A stretch of 64,000 nt of DNA, from the NCBI RefSeq assembly GCF_000181795.1, contig NW_003526943.1, positions 11,894,007 to 11,958,006 of the forward strand. The letters run 5' to 3'. The DNA comes from Trichinella spiralis (lineage: Eukaryota). Under the pieces are notes generated by a model, which worked only from the letters and a program-made list of their open reading frames with translations, was not told where the DNA came from and made no database searches. Within the stretch, counting starts at the first letter, position 1. Each line of letters begins with the position of its first letter. Shown piece after piece: positions 13,905-62,600 of this stretch. The position numbers and the translations under genes are program-made.

Positions 13905-13955
13905 ACAACAACATCGTAGATAATTGAATCATTTTTATTTTTCAAAAAAGTTTTA

Positions 13956-23975: not shown

Positions 23976-25293
23976 TTAGGTGCATGCATCCAAGTTCTTC
24001 GTGGTGATCATCTTTCTGAATAAGTCAGCTGCTTCTTTGCTCAAAACGCAAGCAACGCTTGCTCCATATTTTGCATCATTCGCCTAATTGATTTTAAATT
24101 TAGTAAAGGAAAGAATGAAAAATTTATTCAATCATACCGTTCTTCCAGTATTGCTTAAGCATATGAAATCAGAATCTGATTTCGGAACAGACCATCTTGC
24201 ACTGTCTTGTCCTATTGGAATTACAGTGTCTTTAACAGTTATTGGCCCTAATACGTTTTCCACTTTTAATGTGCCAGCGCATGATTTTCTCAAAACAGTT
24301 GCAGTTGTTCCAGGTGTGTAAACTTGGAAGGATTTTTGCATAATTTTAACGATATAATTCAAATATATATCTGAAAATACAATATTTTTTCTGTTTAATA
24401 TATTTTTTATTAATTTTCTGAATTCAGATGTACCCGATGAATATGCTACTGGTGCTGATGCAAATATTTTCACAGTTCCTGGTGCAGTCAAAGTCGCTAC
24501 GCCATCACCAGAAGCAGATGCAGTTGGCTGATATGTATGCAAGCCATTAACGAGTCTTTGAATTTCAGTTGAATCATAGAAAGCGGGTACTGTTGCAGAT
24601 TTCTGAGCAAAAAATACGATGGGTTGTTCATAATCGATTATTTTTGCTAAAATTAATTGGGTTTTTGAATTGAATTTTAAAAAATATAACTGTATACCAA
24701 TAGCCCTCAAATTGACATCAGAATATGACATGCATAAAAATGCAGCTGCTTCCTTTGTGGTCTTTTCATTCGAAAATAGATCTCCTATAGCAAGTGCTAA
24801 ATTTGGAAAATACTTTGCTGTGTGTACCAACCAAAATCCTTTATTATTATCTTCAGCCATTATTACACCTAAATAAGAAATCATGTTGTCATAATTTTAA
24901 TGTGATGCATTTCTCATATACCTTTTCCAGGACTCATGGGAAGTTCAAATTTAAAATGTGGAGGATAATTGCTGTATGCTACAATATTTGTATTGGGCTT
25001 GTTTTGTGAACCAATATAAATATTCATTGTAGAATGAATTGGTTGCTGTTGGGCATCTATATCTGCTGCAGCTGACCAGTCTGTTGCAGCAGTTGGTAGA
25101 AGATGATGTGAAGATTTCCCTCCTGGCAATTTATAGACAAAGAACCTGAAAAGTATTATTAAATAGTTAGATTTATTGTGCACTTGAATTTTCATTACCA
25201 ATCCACATCATTATTTTGTTCTTTGCATTGGTAATCAATGGGTGTTACACCTAACTGCAAGGTATATAGAGCTATAACATAAAATATGAACAT
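23976..25293 (-). CDS. Secreted DNase II-like (plancitoxin-like) protein, copy 1, multi-exon
   Basis: Signal-peptide-like MFIFYVIALYTLQLGVT, then VDW|FFVYKLP, AYSNYPP, GFWLVHTAKYFP, FLCMS, WSVP..FICLSNTGR, ending DACT*. GT-AG introns restore the frame. Confidence 0.88.
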
Positions 25294-28200: not shown

Positions 28201-28585
28201 CTTTATGAAAACAAATTTTTCTATGTATATAACTGGAGATAGTACCTAAACAATATGAGTAATATCTGATGTAGTATTAACACATGTTACTCACTTCCAA
28301 ATAGGCAAAAATATCTTCATAAATATAGATGCAGCCACAGATGAAGCGTAGCAAATAGAGAAAGCGCTAAATTCCACTGCATAGTAGGGTCAGCATTTTG
28401 CATTGCTTATTTCTTTAAATAACAACAATTGATCTACATTACAAATGCAAACCAATATTTAATTCATTATCATACTTTAAAAATTACAGTATGCTTTATA
28501 AAATTTTATTTTCAATTTTACAAAGAAGATTCCAACTTTTCAATGCACAAAATTAATTACATGCACAGTAAACAGTATAATTACA

Positions 28586-41092: not shown

Positions 41093-41684
41093 TGTTAAGA
41101 AATCTTTCGTTCAAACTTTAAGATCATTTTTGTAGTGGACTGTATAGAATAATTATCGAAAATCAACGACGCGGGTGTGACTGAGATTTTATTTATTCAG
41201 AATAGTGAGTAACAACAATGATGTAGCGAGAGAAAGTAGTTCAGACGGTTCCGTGTTCTTTGTATGTGTTGGAAATCGTGTATTGTTGTTCCCTCCTCCC
41301 TCCTCACTCATATCATATATATATATATATATCTTTTTTTTGGCGTCACTCCGCATCTGGCGACCTAGATAAAATGAAAAGCAATTAAGAAGTCAGCTTG
41401 GGTACGCCACCCCTTACACTGTGCAGCTTAGCCGGAGTCTGAACAGGTGCGCTGTCAGCCACATTTCAGTTTTGACGCTTTTTCAGCAACTGACCACCAG
41501 AGTTGTGGCAGATATATTACAGGACGCTGACTTTGTGATGATTTAATTGCCATTCCATTGTTTTCCATCAAGAAAAAGGATGCAACTGGCGTTGCGCAAC
41601 TGTTGTTTTCTTACCAGGAGCAATGCTTTGTTACCACGGGGATTTTTAGATGGTGATGAGTAGGTAGTGAGACAAGATTTCTCA
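41093..41684 (-). mobile_element. 5' LTR of the BEL/Pao element
   Basis: Adjacent to the PBS, terminal TGTTAAGAAATCTT, homologous along its length to 57416-58011. Outer end is clipped by a few bases. Confidence 0.85.
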
Positions 41685-44600
41685 TTTGTGCTGGTGAAGG
41701 TGTCAACCTCATTTAACTAAGAATCTGTTAACCTTGCGTTCGTAGTGCTCATGCATGTCTGTGCCCATTTGCCAAGGTATCGCTACATCGAGGATGTGGG
41801 CAGTGTTCCCTTTGATCAGGATTAGATCAGGCTTGTAGACCTGGCCTCCTGATTTCAGGGCCTGATCCAAGTGCACCGTGAATTCTTCTTTCCGTGCGTG
41901 CACCCCAACAAAATGCACTATCTTGTTGTGCAGTTGGATGAACAGGCGTTTGGTATGGGGGCATTTCTGTGAGATGTGTGAGGCAGTCTCCCGTTGACCG
42001 GTTGAATGTCCACAGTGTCTGCACAGCAGCACCGCTGGGTTGTGGGGAGTTCTCCCCCTCCATTTCTGGGAGTCGGTTTCAATCACCCCAAAGCGAAGTT
42101 TCCCAAGGTACCGCCACATCGAGGACGTGTGCGGCGTTCCCTTTAATCAGGATGAGGTCAGGTTTGTAGACCTGACCCTCTGACTTCAAGGCATGTTCAA
42201 CGTGCACCGTGAACCCTTCCCTCCGTGCATGCTCCGCAGCAAGATGTACAATCTTGTTGTGCCCCTGAATGTACAGGTTTTTCGTCTGCGGGCATTTCTG
42301 TGAGATATGCGCGGCAGTCTCCCGTTTACCGGTTGAATGCCCGCAGTGTCGGCACAGCAACACCGCTGGGTTTTGGGGAGTTCTTCCCCCTGCATTTCTG
42401 GGAGCGAGTTTCAATCACCCCAAAGCGGAGTTTAAGCCCAGTGATGAAGTCCTGGCGTCGCATACCGTTAAGTCCGCTCAGTCAGGATTTACCCACAGAC
42501 CTTTTCCTGAACGTCGGCAGACAGCTTCCTTGGTACGTCTCGGTTAGTTCGGCGATTTCTGCGCGGAGCGGTTGTCGCTTACCCTTCTTCAACGCGTCCT
42601 TTGTGGCTGTCGGTACGGAGAAGTGCTGGAGTGCAGCATGCAGGGATTTCTGGTGTTGCGGCATGCTGGCTATGGCTTGTGATGTCTGGTCAACACTGTT
42701 CATCATGCTGTTGGTACCGACAGCGACGCGTGCAGTGTTGCGTGCGAAGCAAGCGCAGGCCTAGCCCGCCATCTTTCACAGGCATGGTGAGGAACATGTT
42801 ATTCATGCCGGTGTAAGGGAGGTGCAGGAAACGCTTGACAGTTTGCCAAATGGAGGCATCAACCTCCTCTAATACTCTCTTACCCACTCCGGGGACACTC
42901 AGCTGGAACTCTAGGGCGGGTATGAAGTAGTCCCGCACAGTGGCAAGTTTCTGTGCGGGTTTTAGGGGTGCTTTACGGATCCTCTCCAGGGTCCCTTCCA
43001 GTGTGCCTAGATTGAAAGAGGGCTTACCGTCTGGTATTATGGAGACCCCCAGGACTTTGATGAGTTCGCCTGGGCCAGCCAGTGGAATATGAATGCGTTT
43101 CTCTCCGGTGTCAAGGACTTTAAAGGCTTTAGAGCAGGGATAGCCAAACTTTTTTTTATCATCGACCCCCTATAATTTTCCTTGATGCCTCATCGACCCC
43201 CAAGCTCATAAAACAAGTATTATTAATAATAAATTTCTTTATTATAATGTATCATCCTTTTATTTATTTTTAATTAATCAAAAATTTTAATCCATCATAA
43301 TTTTTAATCAAATTTATTCTTTACCCTTTTCACAATTACTGATTCTCTATCAGCTTTATTTTACCTTTGCGTTTAATCATCCTTTCGTCAGTTTGTATAT
43401 CTGTTCCTATAATGGCCATATTCATGTAAATTCAAAGTAGTTAGTAATTTTTTATTTAACTATTATGATATTTTTTATTTAAACCGCTTGGCATCGTTAA
43501 TGTGAAGGATGTGTTTGATGAGCAGCTGCAAGGGCCTTGATATTTGACTGGAAATTGATGAGTTTCAGGCGCAAGTCTCCACGCATTTCCAGGTTCAGTC
43601 TGTTCCTTTGCTTTGATAAAATCGCATTTACCAATTCATCTGATGTAACGAAAGATGCGAAAATATCTAACAAAGGCCTATGCAACACATTTATCAAACT
43701 CTTAGAACAAAGCCGCATTTTGTCTAACTGGCGTCTAAACGACCAGTAAGAAAAGGTGGTGAAAATTTAGCCTGAAGTCGAAAATACTCTTAGCATCGCG
43801 CAAAATTAATTTCTGGTAGTGTCTGTTGATAGTTCAGAAAAGTATAAATTATTGTTACAAAATAGTTCTCGACGAAATAAATTACTCAGATGGGATTTCG
43901 AAGTTATATTCGATCCCGGAGTTCATCGACCCCCATTGGACCACTAAGCTTTTTTCGACCCCTTAGAGAGTCCCTTCGACCCCGAGGGGTCGATATCGAC
44001 CACTTTGGCTACCCCTGCTTTAGAGGTATCTTGAACTATCGACTTTGTTTTAGGCGTGCGGACGAAGCGCATACCTTTGCATTTCTTGATGTTTACTCTA
44101 AGACCCCTCTCGTTGACGAAGTCATGGGTGATGGAGAGAAGCTTCTCCATTACCCTGTGACTGCTACTGACTAGAGTTACGTCGTCCGCAAACGCCAGCC
44201 TAACGACCTCTGTGTTGCCGATTTTATAACCCACTCCGCTTTGTTCTAGACGCTCTATCAACTCGTCCATGACGGAGTTGAGGAGGAGAGGGGGAAACGG
44301 GGTCTCCCTGGCGTACACCTGGTTGATTTCTATTTTATTACTAAGTACCCCTCCATCTCCCTTGATGACGGTCGTGCTTACGGTGACCATTTCCCAAATG
44401 AGTGCTCGTGAATCGGTGTCGAGTCCATGCATGCGGAGGGGTCGATCGATCGAAGAGTGACTGACTGTGTCAAATGCCTTTGCTAGATCTACACTGACCA
44501 TGTTGAATTCCTTCCCGGACTTGTGCGCCTCTCTGATGATAGTCGTAAAGGTAGTGATATTCTCAAAAGCGCCATCCGTGCCTAACCGGAAGACCTTTTG

Positions 44601-45170
44601 ATGGGGGTTGAGGGGGGTCACTTCACTTAGCCGGCCGTTACAATCTTGCTGAACAGCCGGTATATATACGCACGAGCCAACCGTCATTGACCGGAAGTCT
44701 TCAGCATCGGACCGGGGATTGTCTACTTTCGGAATGACGGCGGTCCGACAATCCTGTAGGATCTGGGGGATGTGTCTCTCCACAGAAAAGTCTTAATGAC
44801 CTTAGAGAGACAGTGGGGCCAATTTCACGGAGGTTGGACACTTTGACTCCATCGGGGCCCGATGCAGAGCCAAGGTTCATCAGTTTGAGGTGTTCGCTCA
44901 CCTCACAGTATATACAGTATTGTTTATCGGAGCGCGCTTCAGAAAGAAGGGGGCGCGGTCAGTAGATGGCTGCTTACCCAGTCTTACTGCAGAACTACAG
45001 TATACCAAACCGTAGAGGATTAGGAGCTTTCTGATGGTCTTTCAGGACCTCCAGATGCTTTCATGGAGTGCGGATTGTGGGAGGCGACTGAGTTAATGGA
45101 GAGAAACGGCTTCCTGCAGATGCTACAATGCAATGTGAGGTGTAGAGAGTGTTTTGTGCAGTGCGACTTC
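41685..45170 (-). mobile_element. R2-type (family A-related) fragments: zinc finger, RT, linker and two head-to-tail REL segments; interrupted by a hAT element
   Basis: CSICRKPFLSINSVASH, SGPDG, DLAKAFD, AFADD, DGGLGLR, two copies of CRHCG..ET..HISQKC/YKPDL/DVA.PW joined near 42096. Confidence 0.85.
43135..44017 (-). mobile_element. Non-autonomous hAT (Buster/Charlie-like) element, 883 bp
   Basis: TIRs CAGGGATAGCCAAA / TTTGGCTACCCCTG; perfect 8-bp TSD CTTTAGAG (43127-43134, 44018-44025); subterminal TCGACCCC repeats; transposase C-terminal remnant KQRNRLN..DLRLKL..HPSH. Confidence 0.93.
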
Positions 45171-45580
45171 AACCAGGAGAAAACACATTCGGTTGCGTTG
45201 CAAACTATTCCACATTTGACAACAGTCCAAGAACGTTGTTGTCCAAACACGTCTGTTCTTCCGCTGTACTGCATACATAAAACGGCATCCAGATGAAATG
45301 TCAGTCATTGAAACAGAAACCAGTGACAGGATGGTAAAATTTGAATGACGTCTTCACATGCGAAATCATAAAAATGATTTATACGATCAACATCAACAGA
45401 ACCAACTTCCAGAAAAATTTCTGATTTTTTCAATTTGCGCAAACAAACTTCATCAACATTTCCAATTTTACAGTTTGCGAGCGAAAACCGTGTAATCGGC
45501 ATCATGATTACTGGGACAAATTAAAATGAAAACATCCAACCATCATAACCACGTGCCAAAGCTGACATCACCAAAAGAAT
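44689..45580 (-). repeat. Left arm of an 892-bp near-perfect inverted repeat
   Basis: Reverse complement of 58724-59615. Identical ORF translations appear on opposite strands in the track; about 4 mismatches seen by eye. Confidence 0.95.
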
Positions 45581-46459
45581 GCCGTAATTCTGAACAGGAT
45601 AGACCCGATTTTCCTCCTGACTCCGCCTACTTCTTCGCAGTAAAATTTCATTGGTTTCTGCTCTGACACGCTTCTAAATTTCATTTGTTGTCATTCCTCC
45701 GCATTCTATTTGTCAAATTTTATTTCATTCTATTTGTCAAATTTTACTTCTAATCTTTTGACTGTTTTCAAATAATTCTGTTGTTCTCAAACTGAGAAAA
45801 GTAAGAGAATGAAATTCCGATGAAAAAATAAAAAAACAAAACAAAACAATGCAGATACAATGCAATGCAGTACAAATAAAATACAATCCACCACTTGAAT
45901 GGTCGTATTAACCTTTATCTTACTGAAATTTTATGCGTTAAATTTATATTGTATTTACATGAAGTAACAGAAATTGTAAAGAAATTAAGTAAACAATGTT
46001 TAAAGCATAAATTCAAGGTTTTTCTCATAATTTAATGATGAGTAGAACTGAATTTCCAAAAGGGAACTTCGCCTGCTTTTTCACATTTAAATGAATGATT
46101 GTCGTACTAAAAAGTTCCATTTGCTAAATATTCCTTTTCTATCAATGGTAAGTTTTCTAATTCGAGGTTACACTGTTTTTCATTTATGTATTCATGGCAT
46201 GGCATCATAGCTGATAATTTTTCTTAACTTTATGATATTGCATATTTAATTTTTATAGAAAAAACAGAATTTTTTGATTGATATAAAAAACGGAAGTGCT
46301 GTTCATATAGATGCAGCGCAACATTAAATGGTGCGAAACAAATAAGTTGATAAAAAGCAAACTTTTTAAAAAAAACAGTTATTCTCGTCGGTGCCATTTA
46401 CAGCTTTCTTTCTGTTAGCATTCTCAAAGTGGTTTACTTTTATCACGCCGAATGCATAA

Positions 46460-49200
46460 ATACTGTTCAGAAGAATCCCAACCCTAACAGTTGCTTTGCT
46501 TGTCAGATAAATTACATTTTAGCTAGCAATTATGTGAGATTTATGCATAAGATGCTTTTCCGTTTGTCAGAAAATATTCTGATTAGCTAATGGCGATTGT
46601 AATACAATGGAAAAATCAACAAGTGATGAATTGTCCACAGCTGCTGTTGTCAGCTAAAACTAGGCATGGCAACTGCTAACTTGTTAGCATTTAAATACTT
46701 TTCAAATTTCAGGCTGACTGTTCTCTGAAAATGTTTCCTGATGGCAATTAAAGATTTCATTTTCAAATTCAGAAAGTTTTGACTTCTTTCATCACTGCTA
46801 TTGTTTAAAGTCGCATATTTTATTTAAATAGAAAATTAAAAATCTGCTATATTATTTACAAGTCAAAAAACAAATTTATTTATATATTTCGTGTAAATTG
46901 TAAACTTTCTATTTTAACATCTGAACGAAACCGACTAGTGCGCTGGTGAATACCAGAAATTAGAATTTCAGTATTTGTGTTCAGCATGATGCCGTAGAAA
47001 TGCGCAAGGCATAAATTCAATCAATAATACTACTAGTCTGGAATTTTTACAATACATCAGGCAGACGTTTTCTCAAATGGATAATTCACTGCTTGATCCA
47101 GGCAGCAAACCCTTTGATATTGCCCAGATATTGTTCACTCCAAACAATGGGATGAAAGTTATGGCAGCAAATGAGAAATCAATATATGCTTCATGCTTGC
47201 CGACGATGATAATCAGCAATGATCATATTTTGGCAGAAAATATGCAATGCTAGAGGAAGATAACGTTCCTACTTATGATAAAGTGAACTTGAGATGAAAA
47301 ATAATTTTCTTTTTCTTTCACTTTAAATGATTTTTAAATCCAACAGATACTTTTTGATCTGGAATGTACAACATGTGGTTATCATCGTAATACAACAATT
47401 GCAACTTGAATGTTTAATCAACCAAGTTGTCGGTTTTACTTTAGATATTGAAAGAGAAATTTAATACAATTTACACAAAATATATAATTACAAATTTTTT
47501 ACTTTAAACAAAATTCCAGATTTTATTTTTTATTTAAATGAAACATAAGAAGAAAAACAATAACTCTTGTGAACAGCATCGAAAGAAAGATTGGAAGATT
47601 AAATTCTTTTGCAAGCCAGAAATATTTTCAAAGAACACTACAGCTGAAATCAGAAAAGTGTTTCGATGCTAACATTCAGCATTCACCACTCCAACTTTTA
47701 GCTATAAACTGCAGCTTTAGATAATTTATAAATTTTAAATGTTCCCATTCTACTAAAATCGCCATTAGCTACTCAGCAGAACAATTTGTGGCAAATGGAA
47801 AAGCATCTTATGCATAAATTTCATATAATTGCCAGCTAAAGCGTTATTTATCTGATGGGTGAAAAAACTGTTCGTTGCCATTCTATTTGGACATTGTACA
47901 TTGTATTTGCTTGCCTGTTGTAATAACTCATCATAAGAAATTGATGAATCATATATCCGATATCGTGTATATGAGATTTTTTGTTTGCTGAAATTCTGAT
48001 GGATACGGCTTTCTGGACTGGACGGCAATGAACAGAAAATAAACACGGAAATAGATTCCGTTATTATTAATACTGGAGTAAGCGGAAGTACACTATAAAG
48101 CAGGAAGTAAAATGCTGCTGGACATAAAGCTTGATGCAGCTAATTAAGCTAAACAAATCAACCGGAATGGTGCAAATGCTAATTTCTCTTACTGCTGTGT
48201 ATAGCGTGAACTTCCTTGTGCTCTTTTCCTTATCGTTCCTTTGATATCTTTTCATAATGGAGGCAAATAATGATTTAATTCAGTTTGTAATTACAAAAAG
48301 GTACTAACAGAAATTAGTATTGAAAAGAAAATTCTACACACTGAATCGGATAAATCGTAATGATAAATATTGGATGTGTGCTGAGATAAGCAGCATTATG
48401 ATTGTAATATCACAATCAAGTCATTTCTTTTCGCGTCCACTGAAAAGTGAATTTGAAGCAGCTTCAAGCGCTTCTGTGCTTCGTTGGTGCTGTTCATCGC
48501 TTTCTTTCTGCTTTCGAAGCGCTTGACTTTTATTTATCCATTCGAGTTTAAAATTAAAAATACCGTTCAAAAGAAATGTCAGCCAACAGTTGCTTTCAGT
48601 CGTCATATAAATTACCTTCTTAGCTAACAATGAAATCAGATTTATGCCTAAGGTTCTTTTCTATTTGTCAGATATTGTTCTGATGAAGGCTAGTTGAAGG
48701 CTACTCAAGTACAAAGAGAAAATCTAAAATTGATAAATTGTCTACAGCTGCAGTTTTCAGCTAAAACTGGGAGTGGTGATTGCTGAATGTTAGCATCGAA
48801 ACACTTTTCTGATTTCAGCTGTAGTGTTCTCTGAAAATGTTTCTAGTTTGCAGAAGAATTTAATCTTTCCAATCTTTCTTTCGCTCCTGTTCACAAGAGT
48901 TATTGTTTTTCTTCTTATGTTTCATTTAAATAAAAAATAAAATCTGGAATTTTGTTTAAAGTAAAAAATTTGTAATTATATATTTTGTGTAAATTGTATT
49001 AAATTTCTCTTTCAGTATCTAAAGTAAACCCACTACGGGGTTGATTAAACATTCAAGTTGCAATTGTTGTATTACGATGATAACCAAATGTTGAACATTC
49101 CGGATCAACACGGAATTTTTCAAAACTGCAGTTGCCAGCCAACAAAAGGAGTGGTGATTGTTTAATGTCAGCATTGACTTATTTTTCTGATTTCCGCTTC
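46460..49200. repeat. Cluster of alternately oriented ~540-bp repeats (A+ 46460-46990, B- 47354-47895, C+ 48560-49108, partial D+ 49122-49200); candidate hairpin-RNA locus
   Basis: B and C are reverse complements, near-perfect over about 47377-47700 vs 48760-49085. A is a diverged direct copy of C. Confidence 0.85.
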
Positions 49201-50545
49201 TGGAAGCACAAACTTTGGAACATCCTTAGTTTTTCACCCGTTTGCCGGTATATCTCAATTTGTACGCCTTGCCATCATATACAAGAAACGTACCACCACT
49301 CCTTCAATTCCGTACAGTTCCGTTGGATTTGGATTAATAGCTAACCGGGAGGTGAACATTTCATACAGCTTCAGTGTCAATCAGAAATGCTAATTAATGC
49401 AAACGTTGTTGTCTTCAGTTATGCTAAAGTGTACAAGCGGAGGCAAGATATGGCCTTCCTTAACTTCACTAAATACTGTTACGGTTATTCAAAATTTATT
49501 AACATTTATTCGAACAGACTTATGAAATTTTTTAATATAAAAATTATAAAAAGGCTAACAAAAATCCGGAATAAAATTGTGATTGTTATGATTTGTAAAA
49601 GGCATTGACAAATGAAGTTTTCAAATAATAAAACAGTTTACTATTTTTGCATGCATCGTTTTTACAACGACGTGTTGAAAATCAAATTTAATTACATATA
49701 AAACTTATGAATTCAACATCTTCAACCACTATCTTTCAACAACTGTCGAAATATTCCCATCTATAGTTATAAATTACAGTACTTTTTGCAAGTTGAAAAT
49801 ACTTTCCAAATTTCCTATTCATTCCGATATTTCCTGTCTATCATCGATGACGATTAATTTAATCTGGTCTGGTATTAAATGCGCAACATTTAATGTAATG
49901 ACCGTAAGGTGATGGACTATGAACGCGATTTACGAAGCATCCTTTATTTTGAATTATCAAGAATTTATGAATTCAGTTTTTACAAAAGTAACCATTCGTG
50001 ACATTATATTACAGTACACATTACAATTTACTATATATGAATATCAAAAGCAAAAGGCTATTATTTAGCAGTCATATTTGAATTCACTTTCAAAATGTAA
50101 CATATTATAATTAGAATTTGTGAAACAATGATAAACAGCCAAGAATTGCAGTGATTTGAACGGCACAATATTTTATGTAAGTCACGAGGAAACTTCAACC
50201 AATAGCTCATCTCGGAGCAATGCACCAATCACAGTGAAGATTGATGCGATTGGTATTTGAATAATTAAATTCGCTATCACGTGATGTGGAGACATTCATT
50301 ACGATAAGTGGAAACGAACGCTACTCATTCAAAGTTGAAAAGTTGACGCTTGCTGGCATATTTTTAACATTCTATCATCACAGAAAGTTCTATTTTATTC
50401 TTTTCTTGATTTTTTTAACCAAGATTAATATTCTCAGTTTAACTAAAGATTAGGTACAATTTGATTACTGTGCTTACTGTAAATCAGCGTTCATTTGCCC
50501 AGTAAACTGTTGTTGCTGTTCTATTCTCAACTTGTATTGCTTCCA

Positions 50546-53500
50546 ATGTCTCAACAAAGTAAGTATTGTTGTTATATTATGTAAAATGTTGATCGTAGCA
50601 TCGTCTATTGTTGTTTGATTTTTAATTTTTCAAAAAGTGGTGGCCTAGCTGCAAAATATATTTGACCAAATTCATGAACCGCATCTTATTTCACCAACTG
50701 TTGAGCAATTTTTAATCACTGAATTATTTTTAGGCCAAGATACGAATTTAGCTGCAGATGAACTGTCGCAGTTGGGTTTAGTAAGTATTATTTAATGTTT
50801 TATTAAATTATTTCTTATTGTTGTTGTTGTTGATGCTTTTTTAGAAAGAATTAGTGAAGCGTCCTGGATACGGGACTGTTGGCAAGCCGATAAAATTAGC
50901 ATGCAATTATTTTCCACTGATAAAATTACAGAAAGGTGATATTGTGGTTAACAGATATCACATCGACATACAACATCCACGTTTAAAGTTGAATTGGTTC
51001 GAGTTTAATTTATTGTTAAGTTTTATTATAGTTTTAATGTGTTTTTATTTTCTGTTCAAGTGATGACAATCGTGACGTATTTTGGGCATATGTAGTGAAG
51101 CGTTCAGATATTTTTGGCGATCCATTTAAATTAGCGTACGATGGGAAGAGTACTTTGTTCACAGTTGAGAAATTACATTTGAAGCAAGTCGGTGAAACAG
51201 CAGATCCGGTTCGTTTTAAAAATTAATTCTGGAGTTTTATAAATTGTAATTTTCAAATATGAATATTTGTATATTTTAAGGAAAAGTTTTCCTTCAAAAC
51301 TGTTCGAGAAAATAAACCATCAGAGTTATCTATTTTGATGCAATTCACTGGTCTGGTTCACTTGGACTTCAGAAATGCAGAAGCCGGTTCGCTGGATGAA
51401 CGTGAAAAGGGTCCAATTCAATTTTTGGATATATTGTTTGCACAAGGGCGTTCATCTCCATTATTTGAGTAAATTGCAGTTTAATAACAGTTTTAATTTA
51501 TGAATTGGAATAATTTCAGATTGTCGAAATCATTCAAAGCAGTCAGGAATTCATTTTATTGCATTCCACAAGGTGCTGGTGTGGACGTGAAATATGGCAT
51601 TGAATTATGGAGAGGCTTGTTCATTTCTGCGCGCGTAATTGATGGTTTTCGACCAGCGATTAATATTGATGGTGTGATGGAAATTGTTTTTCATTTCGGT
51701 GAAAAAAAATTTTAATAATTGAAATGGATTTTAGTATCACACAGTTGCTTTTACAAGCGTCAGTCACTGATAAATTTGATTTGCGACATATTGAATGGTG
51801 ATGAACGTGAAGTAAGATTTCATCCAAATCAGCTTAGATTGAATACCCAACTTCAACCAGAACATTTGAACTTGTTGATACCAGAATTAAAAGGTAATCG
51901 TCAATGGAATATTTGAAATATATTTAAAATTGTTTTTCTTATTAATTTAGGGGTCTGTATTCATACAACACATCGAAATCAAGATCGAATTTATCGTATT
52001 AAAAATATACTCAGTACGGCAGTATCGATGAAATTCGAAAAAGACGGAAAAGAAGTTTCAGTTGCGGAATATTTTCGTGATGTTTATGGGCCATTAAAGT
52101 ATCCAAACTTGCCGTTGGTTGAAGTCGGCAGTAAATCAAAACCAATTTATTTCCCAGTTGAAGTATAAAAAACTGACAATTGTTTCAACGTTTTTTTAAT
52201 ATAATGAATTTATTTTGGTCAATTTAGCTTTGTCAAGTGGCAAACTGTCAAAGATACAACAAGAAATTGAAAGCGTGTCAAACGACTTCTATAATTCGAG
52301 TATGTTAATGATTTTAAATATTGATAATAATAATAATAATAATAAATTGTTATATATCTAGTTTGCTTCGACAGACGCTCCTACTCGAATTCTAAAGTGT
52401 ATGGACATGGTCAAGAAATCAAATTTCAATAATGATCCATTTTTGAAAAGTTTTGGCGTTCAAATTAAAGCGGAACCAATGATTGTTAGTGGACGAGTTT
52501 TGCCTCCGCCTAGGTTGGAATATGGTAAAGGAAATGGAGGACGTGTAAATAAATAATAATTATGCATATCATTCATTTTGAAAAATATTTGTTTCATAAT
52601 TTGTCTCATGTTTTTAGCAAATAATTCTTACACCAAAAGATGGAGCATGGAATTCGAATGAATTTAAATTTTTTGAATCTGCTTCTTGCGAATCATTTGG
52701 ATTTGTATCGTTTCTACCACCACATAAAGCATCAATGTTACAGTAAGTATTGCAAAATTTCATTAATAAATCAAATTAGCTTTGTTGATTATTTGCTTGA
52801 TTTTTAGGGAATTCTGTCTGCAAATTGTCAGAACATGTCGTAGTACAGGAATTGAAATGCCGGACAGCCCAAAATTTTACGAACAAGCGCGAAAAAATGA
52901 TACGGTAGAAATGGTATTAAAACGTATTGCTGACAAATGTGACAGAGATGGAATAAAATGTGATTTGGTATTTGTCGCGTTATTTTCATCTGAACAATAT
53001 GGTAATAATTATTTTGTTGTTATATGGTGAAATTTATTTTATTAATGTTGAATGTATTTTTACCTTTTTTAAGCTCAAGTGAAATCTTGTGGTGATATCA
53101 CTTTTGGATTGGTCACTCAGTGTGTATTACCGAAAACAATAAGTGATGTAGCAATAAAGAAGAGTTATTCGACGATGTTAAATATTGCGATGAAAATAAA
53201 TATGAAAATTGGTGGCATCAATACAAAATTACTGGAAGATGAAATGTATGATATTGAATTGATGAATGCGTATGAAAAATTCTTGAATGGAAGTTTTTTG
53301 TTTAGTTTGGATAATTATTTGTATAAAAATAATGCATTGGTAATTGGTGTGGATGTGGTTCATCCATCTGTTGTAGAAACGCATTTACCATCAATAGCTT
53401 CGGTGGGTATTATTCATGGTATTGTACTTTCGAATTATTGAAGGAATGTTTTTGATTTGAAGGTTGTTGGAAATGTGGATACAAAAGTGACGAAATTTCA

Positions 53501-54422
53501 TGCTTCGGTGAAACTACAACCAGCGAAACAAGAACTGATCACAGGATTTATCGAACAATTTTCTGAACGTTTACTGGAATATCTTGATGTTAATGGTACG
53601 GCTCCGAAAAATATTATTGTTTATCGAGATGGAGTATCCGAAGGTCAATTTATGCAGGTGAAATTGTGTTGTATCATTAATTAAAGCAAAGTAAAAATTT
53701 ATTTTTTTAAAAAGGTTTTGGAAGAAGAACTGCCTGCTCTTCGTAGGGCTTGCAAATCATTTGCAACAAATTACCGGCCGTTGATTACGTTTATTGTGGT
53801 TCAAAAGCGACATCATGCTCGATTTTTTTGTTGTGATGAAGCTGCAGCACGAGGACGCGGGAAAAACATCCCTGCTGGTACTGTTATCGATAGAGTAGTG
53901 ACATCTCCTGATGAATATGATTTCTTTTTGTGCAGTCATCATGGAATTCAAGTATGACTTTATCAAATATTTTGAATCTTTATTATTAATATTATTTGAA
54001 TTGCAGGGAACTAGTAGACCGACGCGATATCATGTGCTGTTTGATGAAAGCAACATGGATGCGAATGTCATGCAATCGATTACATACTATTTATGTCATC
54101 TGTATGGTAGATGTGCTCGTTCTGTCAGTATACCAGCACCAGTATATTTTGCAGATTTAGTTTGCGCCCGTGCTCGTTATCATGTTCTTGCAGCGTTGTA
54201 AGTTTGATTAATTAACTTATTTAAAAATGAATGAATTATTGGTTTTTATTTTTTAGAAATTCTGGTCTAGTGGAAAAGTATTCTGATGAAGACAGTAATA
54301 GTAGTAGTGGTAGTAGTAGTAGTAGTAGTAGTTCCAGCAGTAAAGCCGAATCCGTGAAAACAGAATTGACTAATATAATTGCACTTCACAAAAGAGTTAA
54401 AAGAATCATGTACTTTGCATGA
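50546..54422 (+). CDS. Argonaute protein (AGO clade, ALG-3/4-like), multi-exon, apparently intact
   Basis: MSQQ start with micro-exons 50546-50558 and 50734-50780. [26 protein letters not shown] ([23 protein letters not shown]), [60 protein letters not shown], ending MYFA*. Subfamily call is from remembered similarity of the ADLV..RAR motif. Confidence 0.93.
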
Positions 54423-55544
54423 TCTATATCAACGATGGAAGCGTATTTTAGTCTAGTATATTGTTTAGTATTCATTTGTAAGCACTAAATATATTTGTGT
54501 TTGTTTTCGTGTTGTATTTATTTCTGTCTCTGTGTGTGTCCATGTGTGTATTTCTTAATGTTTTTAGATTATAGCTTTTCGTTTCACACATTGTTGTGAT
54601 AAAGAAAATTAGTATACATCATGTAATGAGGATGGTTCAATATCTGTGCATTATACTTCTTATGATCAGTTCATTATACCATTCATATTAAATGTATAAT
54701 ATTGAGGTGAAGATGTTTGTTTGCATGATAAATAAAAGAGATGGGAAACAAAAATGTATGTATGATTAAGTAAAGAGTTGGAGAAAATTGTTATCAGGGT
54801 TTTAAATGTGAAATATGCGGACAGTTTTGAAATATTTTCTTATTCTTGATGCTTAATATGTTTAACAGCACTGTAATTTTTTCGTCCAATGCTAGCGCTA
54901 TTAGTGCAATCCTAACCATTATGAATATGAGCAGTATTTCAAAGTTCATCGTTGTCACTGCGTGGGAGCAGCAGCAAAGTAACTAAAATTGTTGAAATAA
55001 ATTTATGACGCAAAAGTACTTGTTCATACATCAATAAATGAGGAAAGTCAATGAATGAAATGTGCGTGTGTTTGTCTATGAACAGTACTGTTTTCTGAAG
55101 GCTTCATCTATAGCTAATTGCAGATATTTATTCTCATATTATTATTGATTGTTGATTTTTGATGACCATTAACGGACAAATTGATAACCATTTTCTAAAG
55201 AAAAAATGAAATTAAAGTTTGAATTTTACTTTGTCGTGAGAAACCAATTTGTATGTTTTACTCTTTCATGGAAATATCTCAAATCAAAATTGCCGTCTCC
55301 ATTATTTTTGTGATTAGATATTAGAAATGTGAAAGATATTGCTTACTGTTCAGTTTTCTTTCATACTTTTGAATATAATTAACTTCCATTTTTTATAATA
55401 CAGTCGAAAACACCAATTCATATAATAAAAATCTGTATATTAGAAAATGAAAATTAGTTGTCATTAGCTTAAAAGAATTTTAACCAGTGACGTATTAAAT
55501 TTATGAAAATAATCATAAAGAAGGAATATTAGCTTTAGACGCGT

Positions 55545-57320
55545 TTGAAAAAAGGTTCTGCGGAATGGAACGGGACATCTTTGAACAGCTGTCCCGACCG
55601 AAATGGAACACTGGAACGTCTCATTCGGGTCACGGCATATTGCTGTAGGTTCCTCCTGAATGTGAGAACCCACGCAGGGGAACGGAAGATCAGAGCCCGG
55701 CTGTCCTTGCTGGAATTGCAAGACGCTGATAAGCTGTAAGTGAAAGCGATTCAAGCGGAGGCGTTTCCAGTAATGAAGTCCGCCTCAGGGCCCATCCCTG
55801 TGCGACCAGGGGATTCCCTTTCAGCCTTGTCTCCATTCGTAAACACGGAAGGTTTTTTGCGAGTGGGAGGGAGATTATCAAGGACAGCGCTGCCTTGGTG
55901 CCACCACCATTCCTTACTCCTCCCACGCAACGGACCGGTCGTTGAGCTCATCGTGCGACGAGCTCATGAATCAGAATTTCACACTGGGCTGAACCAAACC
56001 TTGACAGCCTTGCGGCGTCGCTTCTGGGTAGTTCGGGGCCGGCAAGCAGTCAAGAGATGCACCGGAGCTTGCATCATTTGCCAGAAGCACGACGCTCCTC
56101 CGTTCTGCCCACTGATGTGCGACCTCCCGCCTGAAAGAGTGACACAGTCACTCCCATTCAACCGAGTAGGGTTGGATTTTGCAGGACCGTTACACGTGAA
56201 AGATTAACATCGGCCTCTGCAAAAGGTGTACATCTGTCTGTTTACGTTCATGGTCACTCGAGCGCTGCACTTGGAACTGGTGTTGGATATGACCACGATC
56301 AGCTTCTTGGCCGCACTTCGCCGATTCATCGCCAGACGTGGGAAACCGAGTGTGATTCACACTGACAATTTCCGGACGTTTAAGCAAGCAGATTCCTTTT
56401 TGCGAGATCTGCTCCACGGGCAGTTAGCTGAGAAGATCCAGGAGGACTTGGCGATGCGGCAGATCGAGTGGAGGTACAGCACCGATCGAGCCCCCTGGTG
56501 CGGTGGCTACTGGGAGCGGCTTCTCAGATCGGTGAAGAACGCTCTGAGGAAGGTCTTGGGGAAGGAATTGCTCCGCAGCTGGGAGTTGCACACAGTGTTG
56601 TGTAAGTTGGAGGCTCCGATCAGTGACCCTGTTGAGCGATAACCCTCATGACTGTGCCCGGTTGACGCCGGCGCACTTCCTCATTGGATGAGACCTGGCA
56701 TCCCTCCTGATTCCCGCTGCATCCGCATCAGCGCCGACAAACGCATCCGGCCTGCGCAAGCGTTGGCGACACCAACAGCTGCTGATGAAGCATCTGAGGA
56801 ATCGATGGTTGGAAGAGTGTCTGGTGACTTTCAACTCACGAGGAAAATGAACTAAGATCGGACGACAGCCGGAAAAGGGAGACCTAGTGTTCCTGGTGGA
56901 AGAAGGCGTTCCGCGGAACTGTTGGAAACTAGGTGTGATCACAGTGCCGTTGACGGGAAGCGACGGAGTCACAAGGTCAGTGAAGGTACGGACCGCCAGG
57001 GGTCTTCTCAGCCGGCCGAGCAGATCGCTGATCCTCCTGGAGCCAACATCGGTTAGGTGATGGACCATGGTCCATCACGAAGGTAATTGAAAACTCCCTC
57101 CGGTTGAGCCTGACCATCCGTAGCAGCTACCGTAACGGGTGATTGGGGTGGTGACGTAGTGGTCACGTGCGAGCGTGTTTGAACGTGCGTGTGATCTGAG
57201 CTTCTGCGTGTGCGTTGGACTGTGATTGTTTTGTGCGATTTTTCGGAATAGAGCCTAGTTCCGCGCCGTTGTTTTCAATTGTTAGCGAAAAGCAACTGAC
57301 ACTCATAGTTGTATTCAACA
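55545..57320 (+). mobile_element. Degenerate BEL/Pao pol 3' end (RNase H tail, integrase) and partial 3' LTR
   Basis: LIRVTAYCCRF, GFLRVGGRL, HH-CC zinc motif, VGLDFAGP, TDN, APWCGGYWERL..SVK, VRTARG; several stops and frameshifts. Confidence 0.88.
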
Positions 57321-57415
57321 TACACAGTTCCACGTTATAACTAAAAGCTTTTTCTTTATAAAAAAATATTAAATAATTATTTATGTCCAAATAAAGTAAT
57401 CTAATGGAATGCACC

Positions 57416-58011
57416 TGTTAGGAAATCTTTCGTTTAAACTTGAAGATCTTTTCTGTAAGTGGACTGTATAGGTTATTTATAGAAAATCAACGATAGCGGG
57501 TGTGACTAAGTTTCGACTTATTCAGAACAAACTGTGAGTAATAACAGTGAGATAGCAAGAGAAAACGGTTCAGGCGGTTTTCGAGACGGCGTGTTCCGTA
57601 TTATTCGTATTTGGAAATCGTATGTGTATCGGTGTTGTTCCCTCCTCCCTCCTCACTCCTATATATATATCTTTTTCTTGACTTCACTCCGCATCTGGCG
57701 ACCTAGATCATCGAAAAGTAATTAGAAAATCCGCTTGGTTGCGCAATCCCTTAGACTGTGCAGCTTAGCCGGAGTCTGAACAGGCGCGCTATCTGCCACA
57801 TTTCACTTTGACGGTTTTTCAGCAGCTGACCACCGGAGTTGTGGCAGATATATGACAAGACGCTGACATTTTGACCGCTTAATTGCTATTCCATTGTTTT
57901 CCATTGAGAAAAACAGGGGAAGCGGATGGCGTAACGTCACCATTGTTTTCGTACACTGAGCAATGTTATTTTAGTACTGATGAGCAGGTATTGAGAAAAG
58001 ATTTCTCAACA
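57416..58011 (-). mobile_element. Solo LTR of the same family as 41093-41684
   Basis: Inverted termini TGTTAGGAAATCTTT...AAAGATTTCTCAACA; collinear but clearly diverged from the other LTR; no adjacent PBS; flanks GCACC/GCAAG are only a partial TSD. Confidence 0.85.
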
Positions 58012-58723
58012 GCAAGCATATTTGGAAAAGAGTTCATAAACAACAATCACCCAATCCTTGATCACAGCTGAATAGCTAATCAAATGGCACAGTTATTCAC
58101 ACAACCACTTATCATATTGATTAGCTAATAAAATAGCAGAAATCATTAGCCAATTACCAAACAATCGCCCGACAACATATCAGCGAACAGTCAATCACAA
58201 CAATGGGATCGAATTTACGCGGAAGAGTTCAGAACAAACCTCCGAACAAAGCATGTTCCTTTATTACTACTAATGGATACTGTAGCGCTACAGTATTCCT
58301 GGAAAACACTTCGCGAGGCGTACCAGATTTTGTTTGAAAATTGTTCATCTGCTATTCAAGTCTGAATTGTTTGTCTTGAATATTTTTACTTGCAAGTTTC
58401 TTTAAGTGAAACTGATTGTCTGGAAAAGATTCTTCTGTTTGTATATGATTAAAATATTGTGTTTGGTGATAGAATTTGTTTGCTGTAACTTTGGCCGTTA
58501 CAATTGCGATTGATGATAGAATTAATTATTAATTGAACGTTGCAGCAGCGTTGCAGTACAAGCTCTTCCAATTGATATTAGATGTATTTAAAATTGGAAA
58601 CGCCACTGGCAGGTTCTCATCTGAACTATCAAGAAGCTTTGTTAATGCACATGGCACGAGCTCAATTTTCAACAGTTGATGCTGCACTGAAGGTGTGCGA
58701 AAATCATTGTTCAAAGTTACGAG

Positions 58724-59615
58724 ATTCTTTTGGTGATGTCAGCTTTGGCACGTGGTTATGATGGTTAGATGTTTTCATTTTAATTTGTCCCAGTAATCAT
58801 GATGCCGATTACACGGTTTTCGCTCGCAAACTGTAAAATTGGAAATGTTGATGAAGTTTGTTTGCGCAAATTGAAAAAATCAGAAATTTTTCTGGAAGTT
58901 GGTTCTGTTGATGTTGATCGTATAAATCATTTTTATGATTTCGCATGTGAAGACGTCATTCAAATTTTACCATCCTGTCACTGGTTTCTGTTTCAATGAC
59001 AGACATTTCATCTGGATGCCGTTTTATGTATGCAGTACAGCGGAAGAACAGACGTGTTTGGACAACAACGTTCTTGGACTGTTGTCAAATGTGGAATAGT
59101 TTGCAACGCAACCGAATGTGTTTTCTCCTGGTTGAAGTCGCACTGCACAAAACACTCTCTACACCTCACATTGCATTGTAGCATCTGCAGGAAGCCGTTT
59201 CTCTCCATTAACTCAGTCGCCTCCCACAATCCGCACTCCATGAAAGCATCTGGAGGTCCTGAAAGACCATCAGAAAGCTCCTAATCCTCTACGGTTTGGT
59301 ATACTGTAGTTCTGCAGTAAGACTGGGTAAGCAGCCCCCTACTGACCGCGCCCCCTTCTTTCTGAAGCGCGCTCCGATAAACAATACTGTATATACTGTG
59401 AGGTGAGCGAACACCTCAAACTGATGAACCTTGGCTCTGCATCGGGCCCCGATGGAGTCAAAGTGTCCAACCTCCGTGAAATTGGCCCCACTGTCTCTCT
59501 AAGGTCATTAAGACTTTTCTGTGGAGAGACACATCCCCCAGATCCTACAGGATTGTCGGACCGCCGTCATTCCGAAAGTAGACAATCCCCGGTCCGATGC
59601 TGAAGACTTCCGGTC
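58724..59615 (+). repeat. Right arm of the 892-bp inverted repeat
   Basis: Reverse complement of 44689-45580. Confidence 0.95.
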
Positions 59616-62600
59616 TATCACGATTGGCTTTTGCATGTACCGACTCTTCAGCAAGATTGTAACAAACCCGCTCAGCGAATTAACACCCCTCAACCCCTGT
59701 CAAAAAGCCTTCCACTCAGGCACGGATGGCGCTTTTGACAACGTCAGCAACGTGGCTTCGCTCCTCGAACTGTTCCGCAGAACAGGTAAGGAAATTAATG
59801 TTGCATGCATAGACTTAGCCTATGGCTTTGACACAATTAACCACACCTCAATCACACGTGCTCTCTGCAGACATGGGGTGGACTTTGGCTCAATAGAGCA
59901 TGTCGAATCAATGATAGGCAGTCTCTCAGCAATGTAAGCTGTCCGATTGATGTCTACGACTGCGATTAAGCCAGTGCCCTGAAGTAGATGCAGCGCTTTC
60001 ACATATAAACATCCCGCCAACTCTAAAAATATACTGAGCCCCATCTTTCTCGAGGAGGTTACGCTGCACCTCCAAAAAATGAAGGTGAAAACGTCAGCAG
60101 GCGCTGACTTAATGCAGGTGTCGCACCTTCGTACGTGCGACCCGGTGTGCCTAACGAAGGCCTCTAACCTTTTTCTACTCACTAGGTGCATCCCCCAACA
60201 GCTCAAGGATTGTCGCACCACTCTCATTCCTAAAACCGACAGTCCCCACCCTGATGCTGAAGACTACAGGCCTATAACTGTTGCTTCCTGCTTGTACCGG
60301 CTCTTCAGCAAAATTGCAATGAGGCAGCTAGAAAATTCTTTTTCCCTCCATCCACGTCAAAAGGCCTTACCGTCAGGCACAGATGGTGCTTTTGATAATA
60401 CGTCCACATAGAAGACCATTATCAGGGAAGCGCACAAACGCGGTAAGGGACTCAACATCGTCAGCATAGACCTTGCCAAAGCATTGGACACCGTCAATCA
60501 TAGTTCAATAGACGGGGCACCATGCATGCAGGGCTTGGATGTAGACTCACGTAACTTAATCGCACAGATGGTCACAGGAAGCAGCACAATTATTAAGGGG
60601 GATGGAGGGGCACTAAGCAATAGGATTGAGATTAACCAGGGAGTCCGACAGGGAGATCCAATTTCCCCCCTCCTCTTCAACTCAGTCATGGACGAGTTGA
60701 TAGAGCGCCTTGAACAAAGCGGAGTGGGTTTTAAATTAAAGGGAGTTGAGGTCATAACCCTGGCGTTTGCGGACGACGTAACCCTTATTAGCAGAAGCCA
60801 CAGGGGAATGGAGAAATTGCTCTCCATTACCCTGGACTTCCTTAACGAGAGGGATCTAAAACTCAACGTTAACAAATGCAAAGGTATCCGACTCATCCGC
60901 ACGCCCAAAACCAAATCACTAGTCGAGGATACCCGACTGCAGCGGCATTTGCATCACCGCCATCCTGAGTTATCAAAAAAACCTGTGGAATACTTTTGCG
61001 CTAAAAGAGATTCCCTTTCTTAAATGATACTTGACAAAAAAGGCAAGTATAATCAGGAGACTGCCAAGGCTGTGAAAGTATCATATGAAATAGCCATGTT
61101 GATTGCCATGAATAAGAAACCACATGCTATTGGAGAAAATCTTGTTAAGCCCTGCATTGTGAATGCAGTAAAGATTCTGCTTGGGGATGACATGGCGAAG
61201 CAATTTAAAAATATTTCTTTTTCTGATTCAACAGTTAAACGCCGAATCGATGAATTGGCTGATGATATAAAACAGCAAGTTCTTGAAAAGGTAAAGTGTT
61301 CTCCTTTTCTTGCTATAAGTTGTGATGAGTCCACAGACCAGGCAAACTGTGCACAGCTCATTGTATACGCACGGTTCATTGCAAATAACACAATTGAAGA
61401 AAAACTACTTTTTTCTGAACCACTAAAAACTACAACGAAAGGAGCTGATGTGTTCCAAGCTGTGTCACAATTTTTTGGAGTAAATAGCGTGATGTGGGAA
61501 ACACTTGTTGGTGTATGCACTGACGGTGCACCCGCAATGCTTGGCTCTCGGTCTGGCTTTGTGAAGATGGTCAAATCAAAAAACCCATCTATTTTTGCAA
61601 TGCACTGTGCAATTCATCGGCAGGCTTTGGTTGCTAAAACTCTGCCTGATGATCTCAGAGAAGACCTTAATTTTGCCGTGGAGGTTGTCAACTATGTGAA
61701 AAGCAGTGCATTGAACACTCGATTATTTGCGTCACTCTGTGAAAGTTTGAATGCTGACCACATGGCACTTCTCTATCATACAGAAGTTTGTTGGTTATCA
61801 AAAGGAAACATGCTTGGCCGGATTTATGAACTGAGAGAAGCAGTGGCAGAGTTTTTGGAGCAACGAGGAAGACGCACAGTGTGTCGAGCTTTCAAAAGTG
61901 AACATTTTCAGCTTAGCCTGGCATATCTTGCAGATATTTTTGAAGCGCTGAATTCACTGAATTTGAAACTGCAAGGAGCAAACGCGAATGTTATGGCTCA
62001 CTATGATATTGTTCAAAGCTTCACTGCAAAAATTTCTTTATGGTTAAAACAAGTTGAAAGAGGAAATTTAGCATGGTTTTCAAGACTCAACGAGCTTTTC
62101 AGTGATAAATGTCTCAGCGAAGATTTGAAAAGAAAAATGAAAGGGCACCTTAGAAGCCTACAAGACGAGTTTTTTCACTATTTTCCTGACGTGAAACCTC
62201 AAAACCTGATCTATAAACTTGTGAGAAATCCATTTTTAGTTAATGTCGAAGACCTTTCACACGATCTTCAAGAAGAAGCCATTGAATTGCAATTCAACAA
62301 CCTAGCTAAAGAAAGCTTTGAAAGTACGCCATTAGAAAACTTCTGGGTGAAGTTACAAGCAGAATATCCTAAAATAAGTTGACAAAGCTTACGTATATTG
62401 GTTCCTTTCTCCTCAACGTACCTTTGTGAAACGGGATTCTCAGCTATCATGACACTTAATATGCAACACCGAAACAGGTTAAACGTTGAAAGCGATTTGC
62501 GATGTACTTTATCACCCACTCCACCAAGAATAGACAACTTAGTCGCAAATAAGCATTGTCAATATTCTCATTAAATTTTTATTGTGAATCATTCAGGAAT

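What the first reader, a model, noticed from the sequence alone, without database searches (positions are those of the whole stretch)
44689..59615. Candidate small-RNA module: Argonaute plus hairpin-RNA repeats in an inverted-repeat-bounded cassette inside a TE/rDNA fragment cluster
Seen: an intact Argonaute gene, a hairpin-forming repeat cluster 1.4 kb upstream, an 892-bp near-identical inverted repeat around both, and broken R2, BEL, hAT and 28S sequence on either side. Known: clade I nematodes such as Trichinella lack the PIWI/piRNA pathway and rely on Dicer/RdRP small RNAs, and ALG-3/4-like Argonautes are reported to be expanded in Trichinella. Inference: effector and guide source may be physically linked here, either as a piRNA-independent TE-memory locus or as a self-amplifying Argonaute cassette.
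Basis: partly seen in the sequence, partly recalled or inferred. Interest (0 to 1): 0.85.

Follow-up and report, generated by a model that had tools for sequence, protein, structure and literature searches.

The report
Co-amplified Argonaute and inverted-repeat unit
This is an intact, spliced gene of the already known Trichinella Argonaute expansion, and it likely was multiplied about 50-fold as a 10-kb block together with a transcribed inverted repeat upstream that might supply small RNAs, whereas the 892-bp inverted repeat around it is likely transposon debris and not the end of a mobile cassette.

Summary
An 18-exon, 900-aa Argonaute has no stop codons. RNA contigs show 14 of its 17 introns as splice joints. 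Upstream lie three ~500-bp repeats plus a partial fourth, one inverted (87.5% over 536 bp). An 892-bp inverted repeat has 4 mismatches. The window is Trichinella, and the gene belongs to the known expanded family.

The interpretation mostly fails. The 892-bp arms end inside R2 reverse-transcriptase sequence, have no target-site duplication, and are low-copy (1.4-8x). The block 45.6-55.6 kb (repeats plus Argonaute) is high-copy (Argonaute 40-65x, upstream 21-61x, a rough depth proxy). So the amplified unit is not the cassette. The upstream repeats match no transposon in the window, and siRNA clusters are reported as virtually absent in T. spiralis, so transposon memory is unlikely.

What survives: the upstream repeat is multi-copy like the gene, is present in other Trichinella taxa, and is covered by RNA apart from the mRNA. 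Linkage in each paralogue, strand and small-RNA output are not shown. Best reading: segmental amplification with gene conversion. A guide-source role is possible (about 0.2) and testable with existing small-RNA data.

The parts
45600..55590 (+). High-copy unit (approximate ends): upstream non-coding DNA, Argonaute and about 1.1 kb downstream
   Evidence: DNA contig depth about 30-110x baseline in the bins tabulated, except one dip, in three runs; proxy only
50546..54422 (+). Intact AGO-clade Argonaute of the Trichinella expansion (tag-76-like), 18 exons, 900 aa, tetrad D622-E662-D694-D832
46458..46937 (+). Repeat copy A (about 73% identical to B and C)
47354..47882 (-). Repeat copy B, inverted relative to A and C
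   Evidence: predicted ORFs from five other taxa run co-linearly into it
47883..48557 (.). Spacer between B and C; highest RNA cover upstream of the gene, peak near 48050-48140; strand unknown
48558..49108 (+). Repeat copy C; 87.5% complementary to B, 128-nt perfect run
49114..49198 (+). Partial repeat copy D
49340..49973 (.). Stretch that few copies of the unit carry in this form (5-17x; bin limits)
   Evidence: one contig joins 48967 to 49783 (X15 record 2)
44689..45580 (-). Left arm of the 892-bp inverted repeat: start of an R2-like RT, a degenerate C2H2 finger and an unidentified segment; its inner flank is the context seen in other species
58724..59615 (+). Right arm, 4 mismatches to the left arm; this junction form also occurs in T. 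spiralis and T. britovi gene models
43944..44792 (-). R2-like RT fragment that runs through the outer end of the left arm
   Evidence: R2 proteins E 1e-36, LINE-1 E 1e-9
59512..59937 (+). R2-like RT fragment that runs through the outer end of the right arm
55593..57074 (+). Broken BEL/Pao integrase region; its junction with the unit is single-copy
   Evidence: (X12 record 12, depth 95.6)
57416..58008 (.). LTR-like segment, 77% identical to 41093-41684
   Evidence: the LTR reading is inferred

Best explanation
This is one intact, spliced copy of the expanded Trichinella Argonaute family, likely multiplied as a 10-kb segment (upstream repeats plus gene) by unequal recombination and gene conversion in transposon-rich DNA, and the 892-bp inverted repeat is likely a low-copy R2-junction fragment homogenised between two sites. 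Shown: gene structure and splicing; high DNA depth across the block and low depth on the arms; no target-site duplication; the upstream repeat in other Trichinella taxa; RNA cover of the B-spacer-C region apart from the mRNA. Inferred: the recombination mechanism; that most paralogues carry the repeats in cis; that the protein is a slicer (DEDD tetrad, intact 5'-phosphate pocket) loaded mainly with Dicer-made 23-25-nt siRNAs from loci spread over the genome. On this reading the upstream transcript is a co-amplified non-coding passenger or regulatory element, and the transposon fragments are the substrate and by-product of amplification, not a guide archive.
For: Depth proxy: Argonaute 40-65x, upstream single contigs 21-61x, arm bins 1.4-8x in runs X12, X7 and X5. 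Five small runs of one sample (3-7 million letters) still hold 40-50% of the sampled words, as expected of a high-copy sequence. Many T. spiralis Argonaute records are fragments on contigs of 0.2-2.6 kb, and several gene models fuse repeated Argonaute parts. The arms end inside RT coding sequence, the outer flanks stay mirror-homologous at lower identity, and there is no TSD. Both arms share three amino-acid-level changes absent from a right-form T. spiralis model, and the one of these covered by a left-form model is absent there too, as local conversion predicts. Contigs join repeat A directly to 49345 and repeat C to 49783, so copies differ by deletions near the repeats. Expanded Trichinella families are reported to sit in TE-dense DNA (PMC7846577).
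Against: Depth of Logan contigs is not a copy number by the tool's own warning. I chose the baseline contigs by hand and left run X1 out of the ratios. No contig spans repeat cluster to start codon in one piece. 0 of 11 upstream-spacer records share a contig length with a listed Argonaute record (the Argonaute list is incomplete and only the longest contig of a record is shown), so the repeat may also occur without the gene. Two arm-like models lie on one 15,062-bp T6 contig, which could mean that the two-arm layout is old. Persistence and transcription of the inverted B copy suggest more than a passenger.
Confidence: 0.62

Rival explanations
1. Effector-plus-guide module: a transcript through B-spacer-C folds into a roughly 530-bp stem, is diced into 23-25-nt siRNAs, and these load the co-amplified Argonaute to regulate the unit itself or unknown targets.
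For: 128-nt perfect run and 87.5% identity between B and C; predicted duplex about -360 kcal/mol over the outer 268 nt. RNA cover is highest in the spacer and lower on the distal stems in 4 of 4 runs, as processing of a stem would give. B keeps its inverted orientation in models from T6, T8, T9, T. murrelli and T. britovi. Another model links C, spacer and the start of B with a B-like C arm (P0164).
Against: No small-RNA data were available. Strand and read-through are unknown, and divergent transcription outward from the spacer would give the same cover without a hairpin. There is no clear editing-like excess of A>G or T>C in the RNA contigs. No target was found in the window. No Rfam match. 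0 of 6 words were found in 11 supplement files with T. spiralis miRNAs.
Confidence: 0.2
2. The near-identity of the two arms is an assembly artefact: one repeat consensus placed at two junctions.
For: Contigs in X7 and X12 run unbranched over 44407/44421-44804 with 16 differences, and one in X1 over 59496-59744 with 8. So in those samples the outer 100 bp or so of the arms are probably not identical. The window has an N gap at 30589.
Against: The arms differ at 4 sites. Both outer ends are bridged by those same contigs. Both inner junction forms exist in independent gene models. This rival touches only the arms, not the gene or the upstream repeats.
Confidence: 0.1
3. piRNA-independent transposon-memory locus: the surrounding R2, BEL and hAT fragments are an archive that programs the neighbouring Argonaute.
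For: Dense transposon debris over 30.6-64 kb. T. spiralis has anti-transposon 23-25-nt Dicer products (PMC4323106). R2-junction DNA accompanies Argonaute in two other species.
Against: The same paper reports that such siRNA clusters are virtually absent. The flanking debris is low-copy while the gene is about 50x. The hairpin shares nothing with the debris. Argonaute protein acts in trans, so adjacency gives no loading advantage (established knowledge).
Confidence: 0.05
4. Mobile cassette with terminal inverted repeats (Pack-type or Maverick-like) that carries the Argonaute.
For: The size of 15 kb and the 99.6% identical long arms resemble such elements (recalled). Two arm-like models lie on one 15-kb T6 contig.
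Against: No TSD of 4-20 bp within 5 bases of either end. The termini lie in RT coding sequence. No transposase, polymerase or capsid ORF was seen inside. The arms are far rarer than the gene.
Confidence: 0.03

Closest known systems
T. spiralis 'bloom' of 119 ALG-like Argonautes (Buck and Blaxter 2013, PMC3782831)
   Same: Same family: 97% identical to a T. spiralis tag-76 record over 817 columns and nested in the Trichinella clade. The function is stated as unknown in that paper.
   Different: The passages read count genes only and say nothing on an amplified unit, an upstream repeat or DEDD. The depth proxy here suggests about 40-65 copies, and many records are fragments on tiny contigs, so 119 may be an overcount (inference).
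TE-associated expanded Trichinella gene families such as DNase II (PMC7846577)
   Same: Multi-copy genes in transposon-dense DNA; a tandem DNase II pair lies in this same window.
   Different: Argonaute is not mentioned in that paper's main text (0 hits). Here the copied unit includes 5 kb of upstream non-coding DNA with an inverted repeat.
Drosophila hairpin-RNA (hpRNA) loci and testis Ago2 duplications (PMC10292708, PMC12697358; search listing and abstract starts only)
   Same: A long inverted repeat that could be diced; recurrent expansion of RNAi effectors.
   Different: Those hpRNAs have demonstrated siRNAs and targets. No siRNA or target is shown here. Linkage to an Argonaute gene is not part of that model as I recall it.
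R2 non-LTR retrotransposons
   Same: The arm-flanking RT matches R2 proteins best, and R2-like pieces are interleaved with 28S fragments.
   Different: All copies are broken. The arm is an internal fragment fused to an unidentified segment.

Membership tests
AGO-clade Argonaute | N-PAZ-MID-PIWI architecture in one open frame, closer to AGO than to PIWI | tested here: met
   close relative P0015 matches human AGO at E 1e-146 and PIWI proteins at E 1e-39
AGO-clade Argonaute (slicer) | Catalytic tetrad and 5'-phosphate pocket | tested here: inconclusive
   Y548, K552, Q564, K589 and D622, E662, D694 align with animal AGO2-like proteins; the fourth residue is D, not H. Activity of DEDD in other Argonautes is recalled; no assay.
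Trichinella ALG-like Argonaute expansion | Falls in the Trichinella-specific multi-copy clade | tested here: met
   Quick tree of 33 rows, support 100, sister to Trichuris; many paralogous records
ALG-3/4 subfamily | Groups with C. elegans ALG-3/4; sperm 26G-type guides | not tested
   No ALG-3/4 sequence was in my set; the placement is taken from PMC3782831
TIR DNA transposon or Maverick-like cassette | Defined termini with target-site duplication | tested here: not met
TIR DNA transposon or Maverick-like cassette | Termini as numerous as the cargo | tested here: not met
   Arms 1.4-8x, cargo 40-65x; proxy
Hairpin-RNA (hp-siRNA) locus | Long inverted repeat able to fold back | tested here: met
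Hairpin-RNA (hp-siRNA) locus | One transcript crossing both arms | tested here: inconclusive
   RNA contigs cover the region, but they are unstranded and no listed piece spans both arms
Hairpin-RNA (hp-siRNA) locus | Phased Dicer siRNAs from the stem | not testable with these tools
   No small-RNA raw reads were offered
microRNA cluster | Conserved stable pre-miRNA hairpins with a known mature read | tested here: inconclusive
   Core hairpin z -2.5 (B), -2.0 (C), -0.5 (A), -0.8 (D). 3 of 23 consensus pairs show a double change, none in more than one copy. 0 of 6 words found in supplements. The full list of 213 novel miRNAs was unreadable.
piRNA-cluster-like transposon memory locus | High local density of antisense small RNAs | not testable with these tools
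   No small-RNA reads; such clusters are reported as virtually absent genome-wide (PMC4323106)

The most novel reading that the evidence does not exclude
Encapsulated Trichinella amplified, about 50-fold, a self-contained RNAi unit in which each DEDD Argonaute gene carries its own upstream fold-back RNA gene. The stem is diced and loaded into that Argonaute, giving the unexplained Argonaute bloom a dedicated guide source and a testable target set, possibly in the host.
Probability: 0.17. Interest if true: 0.78.

Novelty: new member of a known kind. Interest (0 to 1): 0.42.

Why it matters
The Trichinella Argonaute expansion was reported in 2013 with unknown function (PMC3782831). This locus gives it an anatomy: a roughly 10-kb unit, near 50 copies by a rough proxy, with a transcribed inverted repeat upstream and an H-to-D change in the tetrad in all Trichinella records checked except T. 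pseudospiralis. I found no description of that unit in 10 literature searches. It makes one question directly testable with data already published: do the B/C repeats yield small RNAs?

Tried and rejected
No whole genome is held for this window, so the paralogue census could not be run. The run search listed no holder on record as RNA; this blank is not used as evidence. The four guessed RNA runs were accepted as RNA because they show splice joints.

Rfam found nothing in 44500-50600 at E up to 5. A pre-miRNA cluster is not supported by folding. I compared the repeats by eye, not by computation, with 62 miRNAs of Table S8 of PMC10660789 and 35 of Tables 1-2 of PMC3212509 and saw no full match. 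The supplements of PMC3212509 and PMC7445429 could not be read, and the R data files of PMC4323106 are binary; they may hold miRNAs or siRNAs from this repeat.

A protein-coding reading of the upstream region was rejected: frames are short, have no significant Pfam hit, and match only short hypothetical models. The unidentified segment in the arm got no name: no Pfam hit and Atlas scores at chance level (0.77). PMC5035012 does not mention Trichinella. The careful tree did not finish; the quick tree is used and carries a long-branch warning. Four look-ups of earlier findings returned nothing.
Full report
ORIGIN AND GENE. The longest Piwi exon retrieves Trichinella 'tag-76' or 'argonaute-3' records at 80-97% identity, then Trichuris at about 70%. 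I built an 18-exon model at 50546-54422 with 17 GT-AG introns, 900 aa and no internal stop. Single exons carry PAZ, L2 and Piwi domains. Contigs of four runs from three studies show 14 of the 17 introns as joints. Introns 3 and 15 are supported by pieces or loose ends, and intron 9 is not in the cut output (15 joint rows shown, 37 hidden). The RNA contigs differ from the window at some letters, so they show that the family is expressed, not this copy specifically. A quick tree of 33 rows puts the protein in a Trichinella clade, sister to Trichuris. The pocket residues Y548, K552, Q564 and K589 are kept, and the tetrad is D622-E662-D694-D832. Among stored records with the motif, 50 have D and 20 have H, and every H is from T. 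pseudospiralis or Trichuris (isoforms count separately). [quoted passage not shown] I could not test that placement.

THE 892-BP INVERTED REPEAT. It is exact: 44689-45580 against 58724-59615, 4 mismatches. It is not a transposon end. No direct repeat of 4-20 bp lies within 5 bases of the ends. The outer ends fall inside RT coding sequence that continues on both sides at lower identity, and that RT matches R2 proteins best. The arm holds the RT start, a weak C2H2 finger and an unidentified segment. Gene models from T. murrelli, T6, T9 and T. spiralis run across the inner end of the left arm. Models from T. spiralis and T. britovi run across the inner end of the right arm. So both junction forms are old. 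Yet the window's two arms share three amino-acid-level changes that the right-form T. spiralis model lacks, and the left-form model lacks the one it covers. This points to recent homogenisation at this locus. Contigs from three runs bridge the outer ends unbranched, with 16, 16 and 8 differences. I infer that in those samples near-identity starts about 100 bp further in. A conversion tract of variable length fits, and so does assembly collapse.

WHAT IS AMPLIFIED. I laid 4 of the 24 listed runs as DNA. Against hand-picked low-depth contigs (medians 92, 6.6 and 26 in X12, X7 and X5), single Argonaute contigs are at 40-65x and single upstream contigs at 21-61x. The bins tabulated from 45.5 to 55.7 kb are at 31-112x, except a dip to 5-17x at 49.3-50.0 kb. 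The four arm bins are at 1.4-8.3x. Run X1 was left out of the ratios because it is split into 15,414 laid pieces; its profile has the same shape. Two X5 contigs at 44-46 were left out of the baseline as apparent two-copy sequence. The tool warns that this depth is not a copy number, so only the contrast is relied on. The BEL junction at about 55.6 kb is bridged by single-copy contigs. The amplified unit is therefore about 45.6-55.6 kb, and the flanking debris is mostly particular to this locus.

Linkage elsewhere: 2 of 15 arm-segment records share contig length and near-adjacent accessions with an Argonaute record (T. britovi KRY45468 and KRY45462, 20,832 bp; T. nativa KRZ48408 and KRZ48406, 15,014 bp). 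0 of 11 upstream-spacer records do (the Argonaute list is incomplete). A T. nelsoni model chains the spacer, the arm with its RT, and the spacer again. One contig joins repeat C to the promoter-proximal stretch and another joins repeat A to 49345. So cis-linkage is shown for some copies and inferred for most.

THE UPSTREAM REPEATS. A, B, C and partial D are copies of a roughly 500-bp unit, with B inverted. B and C are 87.5% identical with perfect runs of 128, 50 and 48 nt. Spurious ORF models from T6, T8, T9, T. murrelli and T. britovi run from the A-B spacer into B in the same orientation, and one such sequence is recorded on six contigs. RNA depth over 47787-48809 is 470-667, 310-356, 52-66 and 182-383 in the four runs. 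It is 23.8, 1.6, 0 and 1.8 over 46082-46422, which is high-copy DNA, so DNA carry-over does not explain it. It is zero over 49492-50173 in three of the four runs, so the transcript is separate from the mRNA (that stretch is also low-copy). Strand is unknown. Local hairpins are at background density, only B and C fold better than most shuffles, and covariation is negligible. There is no Rfam match and no match to listed miRNAs within the limits given under Tried and rejected. The repeats share no match of 16 bases or more with the transposon region or the Argonaute gene.

LITERATURE. T. spiralis lacks piRNAs and has 23-25-nt Dicer-type RNAs antisense to transposons, spread evenly, with dense clusters virtually absent (PMC4323106; passages, section 13, supplement list and part 1 of the archive). 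Expanded Trichinella families lie in TE-dense DNA (PMC7846577, passages). A member of this family (KRY38162.1) was reported in infected mouse serum with 9 peptides (PMC8912135, passages), but no Argonaute was found in secreted material (PMC10660789; passages, Table S8, word search of 11 supplements). Also seen: PMC3212509 (parts 2-3 of 6), PMC7445429, PMC6468775, PMC4640811 and PMC4105696 (passages), and PMC5035012 (word search, no hit). Ten searches found no description of the unit. Most subscription papers are not in the library, and unread supplements may hold small RNAs from this repeat.

VERDICT. The features are real. The gene is a member of a known expansion. The cassette and memory-locus readings fail. 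The most likely mechanism is segmental amplification with conversion (0.62). The lead worth keeping is the co-amplified, transcribed inverted repeat (0.2 as a guide source). Interest 0.42.

Noticed in passing
window 43135-44017: Non-autonomous hAT-like insert with terminal repeats and a perfect 8-bp target duplication. The hAT-like element ending at about 62765 abuts the reverse complement of the same 8-mer in a related R2 copy, so there may be two insertions at one site.
   Followed up: partly
window 22959-26015 and 27790-30588: Tandem pair of DNase II genes on the minus strand, 86-90% identical; a known expanded Trichinella family.
   Followed up: partly
window 33983-34342: 28S fragment interrupted by non-rRNA sequence just before what I recall as the R2 target site (about 34230); R2-like pieces lie on both sides.
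   Followed up: no
window 57582-58215: A second short high-depth stretch (peak near 58105, about 100x) next to the LTR-like segment; identity unknown.
   Followed up: no
window 47981-48190: The most strongly RNA-covered part of the spacer has many diverged relatives among unnamed short predicted proteins; it may be the functional core of the non-coding transcript.
   Followed up: partly
window 50174-50514: RNA cover just upstream of the Argonaute start is high in one run (1052) and 24 or less in the other three, and the ratio of Argonaute to upstream RNA differs strongly between runs; a stage- or sex-specific start is possible.
   Followed up: no
protein P0153 (T. pseudospiralis): A gene model fuses BEL/Pao domains to a full Argonaute, so a paralogue there also abuts a BEL element.
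   Followed up: partly
proteins P0088 and P0090 (Trichinella T6): Two arm-like models on one 15,062-bp contig; possibly a two-arm layout in another taxon.
   Followed up: no
window 26902-27021 (-): Diverged 5S rRNA copy between the two DNase II genes.
   Followed up: no
window 11565-13905 (+) and 16728-21698 (-): Ordinary genes left of the repeat zone: a nuclear receptor with a C4 zinc finger and a helicase that looks FANCM-like (weak ResIII hit; the name is recalled).
   Followed up: no
window 30589-30599: Assembly gap of N between the AT-rich gene region and the 28S/transposon zone, so that join is a scaffold join.
   Followed up: no
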